Shown here: positions 1,631 through 47,822 of the stretch, one piece after another
How the letters are laid out: every line of letters begins with the position of its first letter
Numbering within the stretch: the stretch's first letter is position 1
Assembly: GCA_048550195.1 (NCBI GenBank)
Contig: JBLYYR010000111.1
Span: 10,224 to 74,223, forward strand
Length of the DNA: 64,000 nucleotides
Source: Arenicellales bacterium
GTDB taxonomy: Bacteria; Pseudomonadota; Gammaproteobacteria; BMS3Bbin11
Direction: 5' to 3'
Translations under genes and position numbers: made by a program
The notes under the pieces: model-generated
Told to the model about the DNA's origin: nothing
Seen by the model: the letters and a program-made list of their open reading frames with translations, nothing else
Databases searched by the model: none

Positions 1631-1707
1631 TGGTGCCCCGGAGACGATTCGAACGTCCGACCTGCCGCTTAGGAGGCGGCTGCTCTATCCAGCTGAGCTA
1701 CCGGGGC
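1631..1707 (-). tRNA. tRNA-Arg (anticodon CCU)
   Basis: The reverse complement is GCCCCGGTAGCTCAGCTGGATAGAGCAGCCGCCTCCTAAGCGGCAGGTCGGACGTTCGAATCGTCTCCGGGGCACCA. It folds as a 77-nt cloverleaf with a 7-bp acceptor stem, a GCTC/GAGC D-stem, the anticodon loop CTCCTAA (anticodon CCT), a TTCGAAT T-loop and a 3' CCA. Confidence 0.85.
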
Positions 1708-17314: not shown

Positions 17315-19150
17315 TTAACGAATATTCATGTACCGTATATCAAAAAAGGCAGAACGACCTGCTGTGTTAAATCCATCGGCAAGTTGATATTCCTCATCGG
17401 TGATATTTTCCAGGCGCAGGCCAACATGAATCAGCTTGCCAAATGATTTGGTTGCTGAAAGGTTTAGTATGCTAAAGGCATCAAGAATGATGTCGCTGTA
17501 TGCGGAATCAGGGCGCTCACCGGTATATGTTAGCTGGGCGCTTGCTGAATAACTACTGCCGACATAGCGTCCTGTCAGGCTGTACTTTTCTTTTGCCCGG
17601 CGCGCCAGCTGCTTGTCTGTCGTCAGGTCTTTTGGGTCCTGGTAGGTTGCATCGGCATCAACCACGTACGGCCCTTTGCGAAACGAATAGACGAGTTCAA
17701 TACCACGAGTACGGGTTTCATCAATATTTTCATTACGTCCTGGAATTGGGCCATTGAATCCATCCGGGTCGACAAAGTTTATCAGGTTGTCAATTTCATT
17801 CTGGAAGACGCTTACCCGTGTGCGATGGACTGATGAAGGATTGACGCGAGCACTCAGTTCAATGCTTGTTGATGTTTCTGGTGCCAGATCCGGGTTGCCA
17901 CCGAAGCCAAAACGATCTGTGCTGCCTGGAGCACGGAAACCGGTAGCAAGGGATGCGATCAGCTTCGTTGCCTGGCTGGCCTGATAACCATAGCTCAGTT
18001 CACCGGTCGTTTTTCCATCAAAAGCACTATAGTCTGTGTAACGCAGGCCTGCGGTAATTTGATTGGCTCCAGATTCGAACTGATCCTGTACATAGATGCC
18101 AACGGTATCTGTGTCTTCATCAAACCCGGCACCGAAGGACAGTGATTTGGCATTTTCCCGATAGGTCTGTAAGCCGGCTGTTACAAGATTTGCGGTACCT
18201 ATGACGATATCATTCTGCCAGTCCAGTTCATAGCGGGTAGTTTTCAGGAAATCAGTTGATTGTCTTTGCTGGATATCATCTTTGAAGTAGCTGAGTTTAA
18301 TCTTACTTACCCAATTTTCCATAGCATTGATATTTGCCTTCAGAGACGAGGTTGAATTTGTATAATCCTGAGCAACCGGGGTTAGAAAGAAATCATAATA
18401 ATCTGTTCGCCCACGACTGCCAATGAATTGGAAATCAAGGTCTGTATTGCCAAAGGTATTGCCCAGTTTCAGGTTAATGCTGTCATTTTTGTACGGGCTG
18501 TCATTATCGGCTTCAGTGCGGGTGGGAAAACCGTCTGTACGAGCGCCAGATAAATCAATACCAAGACGAACATCACCATCTTTACGATGAAAGCTGGCAG
18601 AGAGTTCCTGAGTGTTGAAGCTGCCAAATCGCCAGCCCGCTTCTGTGGTCTCACCCTGACGGGTAAATATTTGAATGACGCCACCCAGTGCATCAGAACC
18701 ATAGAGGGTGGAACGAGGCCCCATAATGACTTCAATACGGTCAATCATATTCAGGGGGATATTCTGTATGGCTGCAACGCCTATAGTGCCCGGGTTGATC
18801 TTGACGCCATCAATCATGAGGAGAGTGTGATCACTTTCAGCACCACGGATAAAAATAGATGAAGTCTGACCTGGCCCACCATTGCTGGCAATATCTATAC
18901 CTGCTTTGGTGCGCAATACATCGGCGACAGAAAGTGCCTGAGACTCAATAATTTCCTTACGGTTTATCACGGTACTTGTTGCAAGTACCTGATCAGCATG
19001 GGTAGCTGTACGTGTTGCAGTGACAATGACCGGGTTATCAATATCGTTCGTATTAGTTTGATTCTGATCTGCCAGAGAGATAACAGGCGACAGTGTTAGA
19101 AGAGAGGTGATGGCAGCGGTAACCGCTGAAATACAGGTAATATTTTGCAT
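17315..19150 (-). CDS. btuB: TonB-dependent outer-membrane receptor, most likely the vitamin B12 transporter BtuB
   Basis: The protein has a signal peptide, a TonB box (DNPVIVTATR), a plug domain and then a beta-barrel. A cobalamin riboswitch lies in the 5' leader. Confidence 0.8.
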   Translation of the reverse strand: MQNITCISAVTAAITSLLTLSPVISLADQNQTNTNDIDNPVIVTATRTATHADQVLATSTVINRKEIIESQALSVADVLRTKAGIDIASNGGPGQTSSIFIRGAESDHTLLMIDGVKINPGTIGVAAIQNIPLNMIDRIEVIMGPRSTLYGSDALGGVIQIFTRQGETTEAGWRFGSFNTQELSASFHRKDGDVRLGIDLSGARTDGFPTRTEADNDSPYKNDSINLKLGNTFGNTDLDFQFIGSRGRTDYYDFFLTPVAQDYTNSTSSLKANINAMENWVSKIKLSYFKDDIQQRQSTDFLKTTRYELDWQNDIVIGTANLVTAGLQTYRENAKSLSFGAGFDEDTDTVGIYVQDQFESGANQITAGLRYTDYSAFDGKTTGELSYGYQASQATKLIASLATGFRAPGSTDRFGFGGNPDLAPETSTSIELSARVNPSSVHRTRVSVFQNEIDNLINFVDPDGFNGPIPGRNENIDETRTRGIELVYSFRKGPYVVDADATYQDPKDLTTDKQLARRAKEKYSLTGRYVGSSYSASAQLTYTGERPDSAYSDIILDAFSILNLSATKSFGKLIHVGLRLENITDEEYQLADGFNTAGRSAFFDIRYMNIR

Positions 19151-19229: not shown

Positions 19230-19450
19230 TGCCGGGGTTTAGTCTCAGGCTGGTTTCCGGGCTTGTGAGCATTGAAGTCGTCTGCCTTCCCATGCGATTA
19301 GAACGATTAAATACATTCATACTGCACAGTGGCTGCTTAGAAGACTTCCCTCACTTACCGTTGCGGGGGCAGCGCCGGAATTGAACCGGCTTCCCATTTC
19401 ATCCTACTGGATGGTATCCAGTAGAAATCCTGAGGCTGGCGACTTTAAGT
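19230..19450 (-). promoter_or_regulatory. Cobalamin (B12) riboswitch in the btuB leader
   Basis: The reverse complement of 19321-19400 reads GGGAAGCCGGTTCAATTCCGGCGCTGCCCCCGCAACGGTAAG...GCCACTG. These are the conserved cobalamin-riboswitch core and the B12 box. GGGAAGGC lies downstream. Confidence 0.85.
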
Positions 19451-43120: not shown

Positions 43121-44461
43121 ATGGACCTGGTAGAAAAAGCAAAGCAGTTCGCTACCTCCGCACACAAGCGCATAAATCACCTGCGCAAATATAATAATCA
43201 GCCCTATACTGTCCATCTTTCTACAGTGGCTAATATTGTTGCCTCAGTGACAGATGACAAGGAAATGATTGCTGCTGCCTGGCTGCATGACGTTGTAGAA
43301 GATACACCTGCCACGCTTTACGATGTGGAAAAGGAGTTTGGCAGTAATGTTGCTGAGTTGGTCGAAAACCTGACAGACATCAGTAAGCCGGGGGATGGTA
43401 ATCGACAGTTACGAAAAGCGATAGACAAACAGCATATCAGCAGGGCAAGTCAGCGTGCGAAAACGATCAAGCTGGCCGATTTAATCGATAATGCCAACGA
43501 CATATGCCAGCATGACGTTGAATTTGGCCAACTGTACTTACAGGAAATGAACGCATTACTGGAAGTGCTTGATGAAGGCGATACTGCACTCTATAAGCGG
43601 GCATGGAAAACGCACCACAAGTGCACGCAAAAACTGGAAAATACAGGAAAGGCTGAAACTCAACCAGATAAGAACAAAACACCCCTTCTCCCTGAACAGA
43701 ATGGTAATAAACATTTGTTCAGGCTGTTCTCAGAAGCCTTTACTGCACACCACCTTGCTGAATCCGTTCGATCATTTGATGCTTCTCGCCCCTGTAAAGA
43801 AGTGCAGGCTATGATGGAGCTTCACCATCTTGATATAGTTTGTTTAAGGGAGCAGGGAAAAATAGTGGGTTATGCACGCCATGATGATCTTATTGGCCGG
43901 ACATGTCGGGAAAACATGCGAAGCTTCAGAGATGGGCAGGTCGTTTCAGGAGACAGCCCTTTTTCGGATGTCATTCATGTACTCACCTTACAGGAATACG
44001 GATTTATCTCTATCCTGGGTGATATAGCAGGCGCCTTCAGTCGTGAGGACATCAATAAGCCGGTTGCCAGGATGTGGCTGTTTGGCATCATTACCTTTGT
44101 TGAAATGAATGTGAATAAAGTAATTTCTCTTCATTTCCCAGGAGACTGCTGGCAGTCAGCCCTTACAGAAGAAAGAATACAGCAGGCTAAGGGCCTGCAG
44201 GCAGAGCGTAATCGCCGAGGACAGCATTGTAGTTTGCTTGACTGTATCCAGCTGTCAGACAAAGGAAAGATTGTTATCAGTAAGGAAGAAACGCTGAAAA
44301 TGATGGGGCTGGAGTCAAGAAGGTCAGCAAAAAAAATCATACGTGAGATGGAGTCTCTGCGTAACAATCTGGCCCACGCGCAGGATATTGTGACCTATGA
44401 CTGGGGGCAGATAGTCAGGCTTACCAATCGTCTTGAAGAGACGTTGGGTAGCAGGGCTTAA
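43121..44461 (+). CDS. Multidomain protein joining an N-terminal Rel/SpoT-type (p)ppGpp-hydrolase HD domain, a central CBS-like pair and a C-terminal HEPN-like module
   Basis: Residues 1-190 read YTVHLSTVANIVAS...AAAWLHDVVEDT...EFGSNVAELVENLTDISK, the SpoT hydrolase signature. Residues about 210-320 show two CBS-like units (HHLDIVCLREQGKIVGYARHDDLIG and GFISILGDIAGAFSREDINKP). The C-terminus ends ...MESLRNNLAHAQDIV, which carries the Rx4H motif of HEPN domains. Confidence 0.6.
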   Translation: MDLVEKAKQFATSAHKRINHLRKYNNQPYTVHLSTVANIVASVTDDKEMIAAAWLHDVVEDTPATLYDVEKEFGSNVAELVENLTDISKPGDGNRQLRKAIDKQHISRASQRAKTIKLADLIDNANDICQHDVEFGQLYLQEMNALLEVLDEGDTALYKRAWKTHHKCTQKLENTGKAETQPDKNKTPLLPEQNGNKHLFRLFSEAFTAHHLAESVRSFDASRPCKEVQAMMELHHLDIVCLREQGKIVGYARHDDLIGRTCRENMRSFRDGQVVSGDSPFSDVIHVLTLQEYGFISILGDIAGAFSREDINKPVARMWLFGIITFVEMNVNKVISLHFPGDCWQSALTEERIQQAKGLQAERNRRGQHCSLLDCIQLSDKGKIVISKEETLKMMGLESRRSAKKIIREMESLRNNLAHAQDIVTYDWGQIVRLTNRLEETLGSRA

Positions 44462-46333: not shown

Positions 46334-47050
46334 ATGTTGTTCATGTTTGTAAGGGTAATTATATTTACTGTTTTAGCCATGTCGTTGACCAGGGCCCTTG
46401 CTTTTGAGACTGAAGTGACTGTCCTGATGTTCAATGAGCAGGACTCACAAAATGAGCCGGGCTATATCTCACGGATATTACTTAGCAAGGACTTCTTACG
46501 TCTGGATGATGGGGAAAACCATGGGGATTTCGCATTATTTGACAGAAAAACCGGGACTATATACAGCGTTAGTCATGAGGATCAGCGTACCCTGGTTATT
46601 CCTCTGCAGCCTGTATTAGCGATTCCGCCAAGACCCTTAAGGCATGATATTGAAGAGCTTGATGCGGGTGGCGTCCCTGACGTGGATGGTAAGAAGGTGT
46701 CGAGGTACTATATGTTTACAAACGGTACCCGCTGTATGGAGGTTTATGCAGTACCCGGTTTTCATGATGATATAACCGATACACTTGCAGCTTTTGCAAT
46801 AACACTGGCGGGTCAGCATGCAAAATCGGTCGATGTCATACCGGACCAGGCTGGCGCTGATTGTGATCTGGCTAATAATATTTTCGAACCAGACCGCTAT
46901 TTGAGCAAAGGATTCCCCGTCAGGCAGAAGGATTTTACGGGACGAACCCGTTCTCTGGTCAATATTAAAGAAAAGGTCATCATTGATTCAACTGTGTTTG
47001 AGCTGCCGGAAGGCTACGAAAGGTTTATGCCTGGCGTTTTTTCAAAGTAG
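46334..47050 (+). CDS. Hypothetical secreted protein or lipoprotein
   Basis: The protein has a signal peptide (MLFMFVRVIIFTVLAMSLTRALA). I recognised no catalytic motif. Its 3' end overlaps the convergent lpxH by 26 bp. Confidence 0.45.
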   Translation: MLFMFVRVIIFTVLAMSLTRALAFETEVTVLMFNEQDSQNEPGYISRILLSKDFLRLDDGENHGDFALFDRKTGTIYSVSHEDQRTLVIPLQPVLAIPPRPLRHDIEELDAGGVPDVDGKKVSRYYMFTNGTRCMEVYAVPGFHDDITDTLAAFAITLAGQHAKSVDVIPDQAGADCDLANNIFEPDRYLSKGFPVRQKDFTGRTRSLVNIKEKVIIDSTVFELPEGYERFMPGVFSK

Positions 47051-47822
47051 CCTGGCTGCGTTCCTCCGTGATATCGATGGTAGCAATCATTGTGTTATCA
47101 GGATAACTGAACAGACTGTATTTAGTTTGATCATGTACAAGGTAATTGCCTTTTTGATACCAGTCACCGAGAACAATTCGGTGTGCTGTTTTACCGCCAA
47201 GCTGGAATTTATGTATCGCTGTTCGATGGGTATGCCCATGGATCAGTAGCCTGACATTATGCTCCTGCATTGCTGCCTCTACCGCAGCCTGGTTAACATC
47301 CATTATCGACTCGAGCTTTTCTTCATTGCCTTTTTGGCTATTCATGCGAAGTTGGCGGGCAAATTCCTCTCGTTCATCAATGGTTTTGGACAGTATGTTG
47401 TTTTTCCATTCATTGCTGCGGCTCATTGCACGGAACTGTTGGTGTGCCACATCATCTGTACACAGGCTGTCACCATGCATTAAAAGGACATCCAGGCCAT
47501 TCAGCCTGAAAACCGTTGGGTCCGGTAGCAGCCAGCTGCTAGCAGACGAGGCGAAGCCAGTGCCAACCAGGAAATCACGGTTGCCGTGCATGAAATAAAG
47601 CTTTGTATTGTGGCCGGCGAGAACAGCCAGACTTTCCGAAATAGCCTGATATCCAGAGTGTTCACAGGCGTCATCTCCCAGCCAGTACTCAAACAGGTCG
47701 CCGAGAATAAAAAGCTGGTCCGCAGCAACCGCTTTGCTGCGGATAAAATCATCAAATAGCTGAATACCCTCGGGGCGACCCGGGTCAAGATGAAGGTCTG
47801 ATATAAATAGACTGGTAGTCAT
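47025..47822 (-). CDS. lpxH: UDP-2,3-diacylglucosamine diphosphatase
   Basis: The sequence LFISDLHLD...ILGDLFEYWLGDD...MHGNRD shows the calcineurin-like metallophosphoesterase motifs of LpxH. Confidence 0.85.
   Translation of the reverse strand: MTTSLFISDLHLDPGRPEGIQLFDDFIRSKAVAADQLFILGDLFEYWLGDDACEHSGYQAISESLAVLAGHNTKLYFMHGNRDFLVGTGFASSASSWLLPDPTVFRLNGLDVLLMHGDSLCTDDVAHQQFRAMSRSNEWKNNILSKTIDEREEFARQLRMNSQKGNEEKLESIMDVNQAAVEAAMQEHNVRLLIHGHTHRTAIHKFQLGGKTAHRIVLGDWYQKGNYLVHDQTKYSLFSYPDNTMIATIDITEERSQATLKKRQA

What the first reader, a model, noticed from the sequence alone, without database searches (positions are those of the whole stretch)
43121..44461. Single polypeptide joining a SpoT-type alarmone hydrolase, a CBS pair and a HEPN-like Rx4H module
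The N-terminal 190 aa carry the Rel/SpoT (p)ppGpp-hydrolase signature, including LHDVVEDT and FGSNVAELVENLTDISK. The middle section has two CBS-like units, which usually bind adenylates or other nucleotides. The last 110 aa or so end in ESLRNNLAHAQD, that is R-N-x-L-A-H, near residues 414-419. This is the Rx4-6H catalytic motif of HEPN RNases such as HepT, Swt1, Abi or Csm6. A small alarmone hydrolase fused in one chain to a nucleotide sensor and a putative RNase is not a textbook architecture. It suggests a stress-signal-gated RNase, or alarmone turnover coupled to RNA cleavage, in the manner of defence or dormancy effectors. The gene sits between metZ and the convergent hemN inside an otherwise deeply conserved housekeeping block, so it looks like an insertion.
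Basis: partly seen in the sequence, partly recalled or inferred. Interest (0 to 1): 0.7.

Follow-up and report, generated by a model that had tools for sequence, protein, structure and literature searches.

The report
Alarmone hydrolase fused to CBS-gated RNase
This gene encodes one protein that joins a SpoT/Mesh1-type stress-nucleotide hydrolase to a CBS nucleotide sensor and a HEPN RNase; the architecture is real, widespread in sulfur-cycling Gammaproteobacteria and already catalogued, but it has never been tested and it is not a recent insertion.

Summary
The 446-aa ORF at 43121-44461 (+) is real, and all three proposed domains hold up.
- R414 and H419 are the only invariant columns across 61 modules down to 27% identity.

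The "insertion" idea fails. GC matches the neighbours, synteny holds in seven relatives, and the gene is as conserved as purF, metZ and hemN.

The architecture is not new. The 2013 HEPN survey lists CBS+HD+HEPN, and its example protein is a paSpo hydrolase in the 2011 RSH census. CBS-HEPN alone is an autonomous module, and E. coli DS-11, a remote relative, is a validated anti-phage protein.

Most likely this is a nucleotide-gated RNase with a built-in alarmone hydrolase. No activity has been measured. Interest is moderate.

The parts
43121..44461 (+). Complete ORF, 446 aa: HD(SAH)-linker-CBS pair-HEPN
   Evidence: ORF list and translation. 120 full-length homologues at 53-93% identity. AlphaFold2 model with pLDDT 86.3 and pTM 0.80.
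43121..43654 (+). Residues 1-178: RelA/SpoT-homologue hydrolase domain (Mesh1 / small alarmone hydrolase type)
43184..43216 (+). R22-K23-Y24...P28-Y29...H32: substrate-binding and first metal-ligand motif
   Evidence: Invariant in 41 homologues. Aligns with the RK...PY..H stretch of Drosophila Mesh1.
43286..43303 (+). H56-D57-V-V-E60-D61: HD metal dyad and ED catalytic pair
   Evidence: Invariant. Identical to Mesh1 'HDVVED' in the alignment. Coordinates verified.
43469..43492 (+). K117-L-A-D120-L-I-D-N124: last metal ligand and Asn of the hydrolase site
   Evidence: K117, L118, A119, D120, L121 and N124 are invariant. Aligns with Mesh1 'KLADKLDN'.
43655..43702 (+). Residues 179-194: variable, disordered linker
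   Evidence: pLDDT below 50 for 179-194. Unconserved, gapped columns in alignment A1.
43703..44056 (+). Residues 195-312: CBS pair (Bateman module), the predicted nucleotide sensor
44030..44050 (+). G304-A-F-S-R308-E-D310: G-x-x-[ST]-R-x-D motif at the end of CBS2 (ribose-phosphate type)
   Evidence: G304 and R308 are invariant in A1. Across 139 modules G is at 75%, R at 73% and D at 82%. The ligand-binding role is an inference.
44057..44086 (+). K313-P-V-A-R317-M-W-L-F-G322: conserved CBS-to-HEPN junction that starts HEPN helix 1
   Evidence: R317 99%, F321 99%, G322 94% and L320 93% across 139 modules. The helix begins at residue 314.
44057..44449 (+). Residues 313-443: all-alpha HEPN domain of the Swt1/Abi2 clade
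44360..44377 (+). R414-N-N-L-A-H419: the HEPN R-x4-H catalytic-type motif
   Evidence: These are the only two invariant columns in 61 modules down to 27% identity. R is at 99% and H at 98% in 139 modules. Spacing and C-terminal position match the R330/H335 residues whose mutation kills DS-11 defence.

Best explanation
The gene encodes a cytoplasmic, self-contained signalling RNase made of two functional units.

Unit 1 (residues 195-443) is a CBS-pair-plus-HEPN module. It also exists on its own as proteins of about 260 aa in many bacteria. By analogy with other HEPN RNases and CBS proteins it should work as a homodimer. The two HEPN domains would build a composite R-x4-H active site. Binding of a purine nucleotide in the CBS clefts would then be passed through the conserved KPxxRMWLFG junction helix to switch RNA cleavage on or off.

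Unit 2 (residues 1-178) is a Mn2+-dependent 3'-pyrophosphohydrolase of the Mesh1 / small-alarmone-hydrolase type. It is tethered by a flexible linker and should destroy (p)ppGpp and/or (p)ppApp.

The most economical coupling is that the alarmone, or a closely related 3'-pyrophosphorylated purine nucleotide, is the CBS ligand. The fused hydrolase would then clear it. RNase activity would track alarmone level and shut itself off, much as the ring-nuclease activity of Csm6 limits its own HEPN RNase.

In this genome the gene is chromosomal, vertically inherited and probably co-transcribed with purF-metZ. Its role is therefore more likely stress or nutrient-linked control of RNA turnover than mobile phage defence.

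Shown here: the three domains, intact catalytic-type residues in the HD and HEPN domains, the modularity of CBS-HEPN, and the lack of any partner gene. Inferred: dimerisation, RNase activity, the identity of the ligand, and the direction of coupling.
For: Domains:
- H32, H56, D57, E60, D61, D120 and N124 are invariant and align with Mesh1.
- CBS pair by fold and by consensus profile.

Active RNase site under selection: R414 and H419 are the only invariant columns in 61 modules down to 27% identity.

Modularity: of the 150 best representatives of the 195-446 module, 114 are stand-alone CBS-HEPN, about 31 carry an N-terminal HD, and one has HD_4 at the C-terminus (P0130). One adds PAS and HATPase_c (P0151). 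HD_4 fused on either side argues for a functional link rather than an accidental one.

Autonomy: no neighbour family recurs in more than 12 of 80 genome loci or about 6 of 69 metagenome loci. No antitoxin, alarmone synthetase or separate SAH lies nearby.

Precedent: in DS-11 (CBS+HEPN), Y157A in the CBS domain and R330A/H335A in HEPN abolish function. The authors conclude that an undiscovered adenine derivative gates the RNase. Anantharaman et al. 2013 proposed ligand-regulated RNA stability for CBS(+HD)-HEPN proteins.

Housekeeping character: same GC as neighbours, conserved synteny and the same divergence as purF, metZ and hemN, absent as a full-length gene from plasmids and phages.
Against: - No activity has been measured for any HD-CBS-HEPN protein. 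I found no experimental paper.
- Nothing here identifies the CBS ligand. CBS pairs bind many adenylates (AMP, ATP, SAM, Ap4A, c-di-AMP; my own knowledge).
- Most CBS-HEPN proteins have no HD domain and no SAH neighbour. The alarmone link may therefore apply only to the fused subgroup.
- The single-sequence Pfam scores for CBS and HEPN are below cut-off.
- Foldseek against the PDB gave no significant HEPN hit.
- Dimerisation could not be modelled with these tools.
Confidence: 0.55

Rival explanations
1. It is an anti-phage abortive-infection effector of the DS-11 kind. Infection produces a nucleotide signal, the CBS pair senses it, and the HEPN RNase shuts down translation. The HD domain resets the system or guards against auto-activation. 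The mechanism overlaps with the best explanation; the difference is the biological role.
For: - DS-11, a one-protein CBS+HEPN system, protects E. coli from phage and needs both its CBS and HEPN residues.
- 13 of 61 family modules weakly hit the NCBIfam DS-11 model.
- The best structural match of the HEPN domain is the abortive-infection protein AbiF.
- Like DS-11, the module is a single autonomous gene.
Against: - The window protein does not hit the DS-11 model, and the family consensus scores 25 bits against a cut-off of 260.
- PADLOC gives only marginal HEPN-region hits.
- The gene sits in a purF-metZ housekeeping operon with conserved synteny and a core-gene rate of change.
- No defence or mobile genes lie among the neighbours of 80 loci.
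- There is no full-length copy on plasmids and no module match in phages.
Confidence: 0.2
2. It is mainly an alarmone hydrolase. The CBS pair tunes the hydrolase to energy or nucleotide status. The HEPN domain serves only for dimerisation or RNA/ribosome docking and does not cleave RNA.
For: - The HD domain is the strongest and most complete match.
- Sources name relatives as ppGpp pyrophosphohydrolases.
- The 2013 survey infers that eukaryotic Swt1 HEPN domains are inactive RNA binders.
- A CBS protein (DarB) is known to regulate Rel; structure 8acu appears.
Against: - R414 and H419 are the only invariant residues over the whole module family, and N415 is at 86%. That pattern indicates a retained catalytic site.
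- The CBS-HEPN module usually occurs without any HD domain, so it must have a function of its own.
- The 2013 survey scores this fusion group as 'active'.
Confidence: 0.12
3. The two catalytic domains act in sequence on RNA rather than on a free nucleotide. HEPN cuts an RNA such as a tRNA. The HD domain trims or repairs phosphorylated 3' ends, either 3'-pyrophosphorylated CCA ends or the 2',3'-cyclic phosphate left by HEPN cleavage.
For: - From my own knowledge, not checked here: some SAH antitoxins are reported to reverse tRNA 3'-CCA pyrophosphorylation by toxic RSH enzymes, and HEPN RNases leave 2',3'-cyclic phosphate ends.
- HD_4 is fused to the module in both orders, which is compatible with substrate channelling.
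Against: - No evidence from this analysis points to an RNA-end substrate.
- The HD residues match those of free-alarmone hydrolases.
- The 16-residue disordered linker does not suggest a fixed two-site channel.
Confidence: 0.08
4. The gene is a recently inserted foreign cassette (toxin or dormancy element) in a conserved housekeeping block.
For: - The neighbourhood is not conserved outside the close clade: metZ is upstream in only 5 of 80 loci.
- The HD domain's closest stand-alone relatives sit on conjugative plasmids.
Against: - GC is indistinguishable from the flanks.
- Position is identical in seven related genomes at 80-91% identity, and divergence equals that of purF, metZ, hemN and cysS.
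- The gap to metZ is 16 nt, with no + strand promoter-like site just upstream and no terminator after metZ.
- No transposase, integrase or repeats lie among the neighbours.
Confidence: 0.03

Closest known systems
HD + CBS + Swt1-like HEPN fusion proteins catalogued by Anantharaman et al. 2013 (examples alr3009 and Pelobacter propionicus gi 118580987 = YP_902237.1)
   Same: The same three domain types in one chain, with the HEPN placed in the Swt1/Abi2 clade and scored 'active'. The proposed logic is also the same: CBS senses a nucleotide and regulates RNA stability. The Pelobacter example is classified as a paSpo small alarmone hydrolase in the RSH census, so its HD is also SpoT-type.
   Different: I could not retrieve those sequences, so direct orthology with the window protein is untested. 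The 2013 paper calls the domain a generic 'HD phosphohydrolase' and never mentions SpoT or ppGpp. No experiment exists for either protein.
DS-11 (WP_000257686.1), the one-protein CBS+HEPN anti-phage system of E. coli (DefensePredictor, Science 2026)
   Same: CBS domain(s) followed by a C-terminal HEPN with R-x4-H about 30 residues from the end; an autonomous single gene; function depends on a CBS ligand-contact residue and on the HEPN R and H. There are weak, recurrent profile hits from this family to the DS-11 model.
   Different: DS-11 has no HD/alarmone-hydrolase domain. The window protein does not reach the DS-11 model at all, and the family consensus scores 25 bits against a 260-bit cut-off. 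DS-11 is an accessory E. coli gene, whereas this gene is syntenic, slowly evolving and inside a purF-metZ unit.
Small alarmone hydrolases: Mesh1, RelH, P. aeruginosa SAH, the paSpo subgroup
   Same: Same fold and catalytic residues. Up to 52% identity to stand-alone HD proteins of about 180 aa on plasmids.
   Different: Small alarmone hydrolases are defined as HD-only proteins (Atkinson et al. 2011). This protein carries 250 further residues with a sensor and a second catalytic domain.
Csm6/Csx1 (CARF-HEPN) of type III CRISPR systems
   Different: The sensor here is a CBS pair, not CARF. There is no CRISPR context. In Csm6 the sensor itself degrades the ligand, whereas here a separate HD domain would do it. 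This is an analogy, not membership.
AbiF / Abi2-family HEPN abortive-infection proteins (PDB 8vz6)
   Different: Only 13% identity. The 8vz6 entry is an AbiF dimer bound to a non-coding RNA, and no such RNA partner was looked for here. AbiF has no CBS or HD domains.

Membership tests
RelA/SpoT-homologue hydrolase domain (Pfam HD_4; small alarmone hydrolase, SAH) | Match to the HD_4 profile above the curated cut-off | tested here: met
   60.4 bits against 27.2, residues 8-128. All 41 homologues match.
RelA/SpoT-homologue hydrolase domain (Pfam HD_4; small alarmone hydrolase, SAH) | Metal and catalytic residues H...HD..ED...D...N present | tested here: met
   H32, H56, D57, E60, D61, D120 and N124 are invariant and align with the Mesh1 motifs.
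RelA/SpoT-homologue hydrolase domain (Pfam HD_4; small alarmone hydrolase, SAH) | Fold of Mesh1 / SAH structures | tested here: met
RelA/SpoT-homologue hydrolase domain (Pfam HD_4; small alarmone hydrolase, SAH) | Single-domain 'small' architecture (HD only) | tested here: not met
   446 aa with CBS and HEPN domains after the HD. It contains an SAH domain but is not a small alarmone hydrolase in the strict sense (definition).
RelA/SpoT-homologue hydrolase domain (Pfam HD_4; small alarmone hydrolase, SAH) | Hydrolysis of (p)ppGpp or (p)ppApp | not testable with these tools
   Needs an enzyme assay.
paSpo subgroup of SAHs (Atkinson et al. 2011) | Phylogenetic placement of the HD domain within paSpo | not tested
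   The link is indirect: the Pelobacter HD+CBS+HEPN protein (gi 118580987) is listed as paSpo. No reference paSpo sequences were available for building a tree.
CBS pair (Bateman module) | Two tandem CBS units by profile | tested here: met
   The single sequence scores 16.3 bits, below the cut-off of 24. The family consensus scores 49.4 bits over two stretches. 12 of 41 homologues hit individually.
CBS pair (Bateman module) | Beta-alpha-beta-beta-alpha x2 fold | tested here: met
CBS pair (Bateman module) | Binds an adenosyl or other nucleotide ligand | not testable with these tools
   Only the G-x-x-[ST]-R-x-D motif and conserved arginines (R243, R253, R267, R308) hint at it.
HEPN superfamily, Swt1/Abi2 clade (Pfam PF18731) | Profile match above cut-off | tested here: inconclusive
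   The window sequence scores 17.1-19.7 bits against 27.5. 38 of 41 homologues hit, best E 6e-6. The consensus passes at 31.4 bits, as does stand-alone member P0127 at 29.5 bits.
HEPN superfamily, Swt1/Abi2 clade (Pfam PF18731) | All-alpha HEPN fold | tested here: met
HEPN superfamily, Swt1/Abi2 clade (Pfam PF18731) | Conserved R-x4-6-H motif | tested here: met
   R414-N-N-L-A-H419. These are the only invariant columns in 61 diverse modules, at 99% and 98% in 139 modules.
HEPN superfamily, Swt1/Abi2 clade (Pfam PF18731) | Metal-independent endoribonuclease activity as a dimer | not testable with these tools
   No multimer modelling or assay is available here.
DS-11 anti-phage protein family (NCBIfam NF053863) | Match to the equivalog model above its cut-off (260 bits) | tested here: not met
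   The window protein gives no hit at E<=10. The family consensus scores 25.4 bits. 13 of 61 members give weak hits, best E 1.9e-6.
DS-11 anti-phage protein family (NCBIfam NF053863) | CBS + C-terminal HEPN in one autonomous gene, R-x4-H near the C-terminus | tested here: met
   compared with R330/H335 of the 365-aa DS-11.
DS-11 anti-phage protein family (NCBIfam NF053863) | Protects against phage | not testable with these tools
   The context argues against a typical accessory defence gene but does not exclude the function.
HEPN-MNT (HepT/MntA) toxin-antitoxin systems | Adjacent nucleotidyltransferase (MNT) antitoxin gene | tested here: not met
   The neighbours are metZ and hemN. No recurrent partner appears in 80 genome loci or 69 metagenome loci.
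CARF-HEPN (Csm6/Csx1) | N-terminal CARF sensor domain and CRISPR association | tested here: not met
   The sensor is a CBS pair. PADLOC hits cover only the HEPN part, at E 0.003-0.05. There are no cas genes nearby.

The most novel reading that the evidence does not exclude
The fused SpoT/Mesh1-type hydrolase reveals the ligand class of the whole CBS-HEPN RNase family, including the anti-phage protein DS-11, whose activating 'adenine derivative' is still unknown. On this reading the CBS pair binds a 3'-pyrophosphorylated purine nucleotide such as (p)ppApp or (p)ppGpp. That switches on the HEPN RNase, and the HD domain is a built-in off-switch that degrades the signal. This would be a direct, protein-level route from alarmone to RNA decay, and a non-CRISPR counterpart of the self-limiting Csm6.
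Probability: 0.2. Interest if true: 0.75.

Novelty: new member of a known kind. Interest (0 to 1): 0.4.

Why it matters
Alarmones such as (p)ppGpp are known to act on transcription, translation GTPases and nucleotide metabolism. A dedicated alarmone-gated RNase is not, to my knowledge, an established effector class.

This family puts an alarmone hydrolase, a nucleotide sensor and an RNase with intact catalytic residues in one chain. It occurs in hundreds of environmental Gammaproteobacteria, including chemosynthetic symbionts. That makes it a compact system for testing whether RNA decay is wired directly to alarmone or adenylate pools.

It also gives a concrete, cheap hypothesis for the unknown ligand of DS-11: test (p)ppApp and (p)ppGpp. 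The present work also joins two literatures that each described half of the protein, the RSH census (paSpo) and the HEPN survey (CBS+HD+HEPN).

If the hydrolase simply co-resides with an adenylate-gated RNase, the finding is an ordinary multidomain signalling protein.

Tried and rejected
1. Sequence search of the isolated C-terminal domain against the PDB gave only noise (E >= 0.1). With the broader profile A3 the top 'hits' were designer PPR proteins. These are a repeat-summing artefact of about 3 bits per repeat; only the CBS hits were real.
3. PADLOC gave only marginal HEPN-region hits, so the protein cannot be assigned to a known defence system.
4. I could not obtain the sequences of DS-11 (WP_000257686.1), alr3009 or YP_902237.1 with these tools. 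Direct pairwise or profile comparison was not possible, and the NCBIfam model was used as a proxy for DS-11.
5. Neighbourhoods of stand-alone members P0126, P0142 and P0164 were on contigs too short to be informative.
It was repeated with a tighter set.
7. I looked for a separate SAH gene next to stand-alone CBS-HEPN genes and found none in 69 loci. An alarmone-synthetase profile was not available offline; only recurrent neighbour clusters were checked.
8. The insertion hypothesis was rejected on composition, synteny and evolutionary rate.
9. A toxin-antitoxin reading was rejected for lack of any partner gene.
10. Literature searches for an experimental study of HD-CBS-HEPN found none. The library lacks most subscription-journal papers, so absence is not proof.
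Full report
**1. The observation.**
The ORF at 43121-44461 (+) is an uninterrupted 446-codon reading frame starting with ATG.
- HDVVED at residues 56-61;
- KLADLIDN at 117-124;
- ESLRNNLAHAQD at 411-422, with R414 and H419.

Upstream lie folC, a SPOR-domain gene, cvpA, purF and metZ, all on the same strand. The metZ stop is 16 nt before the ATG. Downstream, hemN converges after an 81-nt spacer.

**2. The three domains.**

*HD domain.*
- The single sequence gives a strong Pfam HD_4 hit (60.4 bits, E 2e-16, residues 8-128).
- NCBIfam matches only the N-terminal hydrolase part of the spoT_relA model.
- Against PDB sequences the best matches are Drosophila Mesh1 (E 8e-17), SpoT, the small alarmone hydrolase RelH and Rel.

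*Structure prediction.*
- An AlphaFold2 model built from 41 homologues is confident (pLDDT 86.3, pTM 0.80).
- It splits into an HD domain (1-178), a disordered linker (179-194), an alpha/beta region with two beta-alpha-beta-beta-alpha units (195-312) and an all-alpha domain (314-443).

*C-terminal domain.*
- Modelled on its own it has pLDDT 82.

*Profiles for CBS and HEPN.*
- The window sequence is below Pfam's cut-offs for both.
- HEPN_Swt1 is hit by 38 of 41 homologues and CBS by 12 of 41.
- Consensus sequences of 139 diverse modules pass both cut-offs: CBS 49.4 bits over two stretches, HEPN_Swt1 31.4 bits.

**3. Conservation.**
- In 41 full-length homologues (53-91% identity) the HD metal and catalytic residues are invariant: H32, H56, D57, E60, D61, D120 and N124. 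So is the block E411-S-L-R-N-x-L-x-H-x-Q-D422.
- In 61 modules reaching down to 27% identity, the only two invariant columns are R414 and H419.
- Across 139 modules R is at 99% and H at 98%. The junction K313-P-x-x-R-M-W-L-F-G322, which starts the first HEPN helix directly after the last CBS strand, is also highly conserved. So is a G-x-x-[ST]-R-x-D motif in the second CBS unit.
- This pattern indicates a catalytically competent HEPN site and a conserved sensor-to-effector connection.

**4. The module and its fusions.**
An exhaustive search with residues 195-446 found 1,292 cluster representatives. Among the best 150:
- 114 are stand-alone CBS-HEPN proteins of about 255-285 aa;
- about 31 carry the HD domain at the N-terminus;
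- one has HD_4 at the C-terminus (P0130);
- one adds PAS and a histidine-kinase ATPase (P0151);
- one has a generic HD at the C-terminus (P0178).

CBS-HEPN is therefore the core unit, and the alarmone hydrolase is an accessory joined in either order. That argues for a functional connection.

**5. Distribution and context.**
- The full-length protein occurs in at least 419 species-representative genomes. The best 80 are mostly uncultured Gammaproteobacteria from sediments, vents and symbioses: Arenicellales, Thiodiazotropha, Sedimenticola, Thiogranum, tubeworm endosymbionts and Thiohalocapsa halophila DSM 6210. Two are MAGs labelled Nitrospirae.
- No neighbouring gene family recurs in more than 12 of the 80 loci. 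The commonest are an antiporter, a hybrid histidine kinase, phosphatidylserine decarboxylase, MutT/ThiE, PilZ and a porin.
- In 69 metagenomic loci with stand-alone modules, no HD gene is adjacent and no partner recurs.
- In the window's own clade the order purF-metZ-gene-hemN is kept in seven genomes. The protein is 80-91% identical there, like purF (88-96%), metZ (81-95%), hemN (82-95%) and cysS (85%).
- GC is the same as in the flanks.
- There is no + strand promoter-like site just upstream of the gene and no terminator after metZ.
- No plasmid carries the full protein; the plasmid hits are stand-alone HD proteins up to 52% identical. The module has no match in phages.

The 'insertion' reading is therefore not supported. 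The gene behaves like a vertically inherited core gene of this clade.

**6. What is already known.**
- Anantharaman et al. 2013 list, under Swt1-like HEPN domains, fusions to 'CBS and HD (alr3009), active'. [quoted passage not shown] The paper never mentions SpoT or ppGpp.
- The same gi number is listed as a paSpo small alarmone hydrolase in the supplementary table of Atkinson et al. 2011. That census treats SAHs as HD-only proteins. The two halves of the architecture were thus described separately.
- DS-11, a 365-aa E. coli protein with CBS and HEPN domains, was validated as a one-protein anti-phage system (DefensePredictor, Science 2026). Y157A in the CBS domain and R330A or H335A in HEPN abolish defence. 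The authors infer gating by an undiscovered adenine derivative.
- The family studied here touches the NCBIfam DS-11 model only weakly: 13 of 61 members, best E 2e-6, consensus 25 bits against a cut-off of 260, and the window protein not at all. It shares the architecture and perhaps remote ancestry, but it is not a DS-11 family member.
- I found no experimental work on any HD-CBS-HEPN protein.

**7. Mechanism.**
Most likely (about 0.55) the protein is a nucleotide-gated HEPN RNase with a tethered alarmone hydrolase.
- Shown: the domain identities, intact catalytic-type residues in both enzymatic domains, the modular CBS-HEPN core, the two-way fusion with HD_4, and autonomy from neighbouring genes.
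- Inferred: homodimerisation with a composite R-x4-H site; signal transfer through the conserved junction helix; a purine-nucleotide ligand; and hydrolysis of that ligand, or of a competing alarmone, by the HD domain. The last would make the RNase self-limiting, as with Csm6.

The housekeeping context favours a physiological stress or nutrient role over phage defence. The defence role (about 0.2) is not excluded, given DS-11. Other rivals are:
- a CBS-regulated hydrolase with a non-catalytic HEPN (about 0.12, disfavoured by the R/H invariance);
- an RNA-end-processing pair (about 0.08);
- a recent insertion (about 0.03, contradicted).

**8. Verdict.**
- The gene is a new member of a catalogued but experimentally untouched architecture.
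- Interest is moderate (0.4). The main value is the testable idea that the fused SpoT-type hydrolase identifies the ligand class of CBS-HEPN RNases, including DS-11.

Noticed in passing
window 19231-19448 (-): A cobalamin riboswitch (Rfam RF00174, 110 bits, E 1e-26) lies directly upstream of the 611-aa ORF at 17315-19150 (-). That ORF was not identified here; a B12-regulated transporter is the usual case.
   Followed up: no
window 1634-1707 (-): A single tRNA gene (Rfam RF00005, 65.6 bits). The anticodon was not determined.
   Followed up: no
P0151 (860 aa; no window coordinates): A relative extends the HD_4-CBS-HEPN architecture with PAS domains and a histidine-kinase ATPase (HATPase_c). This links the module to two-component-type signalling rather than defence. 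Consistent with that, a hybrid histidine kinase is the immediate upstream neighbour in 9 of 80 loci.
   Followed up: partly
P0130 / L086 1565-2860: A circularly re-ordered version: CBS-HEPN first, HD_4 at the C-terminus. This is independent evidence that the hydrolase and the CBS-HEPN module belong together functionally.
   Followed up: partly
L043 4001-5332 and L049 3384-4715: One metagenome-assembled genome (MFD03804.bin.2.106) carries two full-length copies on different contigs, each about 52% identical to the window protein. This may be a paralogue pair or a binning mixture.
   Followed up: no
L089 2980-3552 (Thioalkalivibrio plasmid pTK9001) and L090 2995-3531 (Azospira plasmid pAZI09): The closest stand-alone relatives of the HD domain (about 50% identity) are proteins of about 180-190 aa on conjugative MOBH plasmids. 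In L089 they sit in a run of small hypothetical genes; in L090 the gene lies between two helicase genes. Their role on plasmids is unexplained; alarmone clearing on entry into a new host is one possibility.
   Followed up: partly
L001 5509-6912 versus window 43121: The Arenicellales orthologue P0011 is annotated as 467 aa, with a start 21 codons upstream that overlaps metZ. Similarity to the window protein starts only at L001 position 5572, 21 codons into that annotated ORF. The longer start is probably an annotation artefact.
   Followed up: partly
window 46334-47050 (+): A 238-aa ORF between hemN and the metallophosphatase gene at 47025-47822 (-) overlaps the latter's 3' end by 26 nt. It is much less conserved than its neighbours (64-66% against 82-89% in relatives). 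Its homologue has no Pfam hit. Function unknown.
   Followed up: no
L019 2642-4492 (-) and similar: Long spurious antisense ORFs of low-complexity, R/Q/H-rich sequence in GC-rich loci formed an apparent 'neighbour family' (cluster 1). They also displaced the true gene call in 11 metagenome loci. This is an ORF-calling artefact, not a gene.
   Followed up: yes
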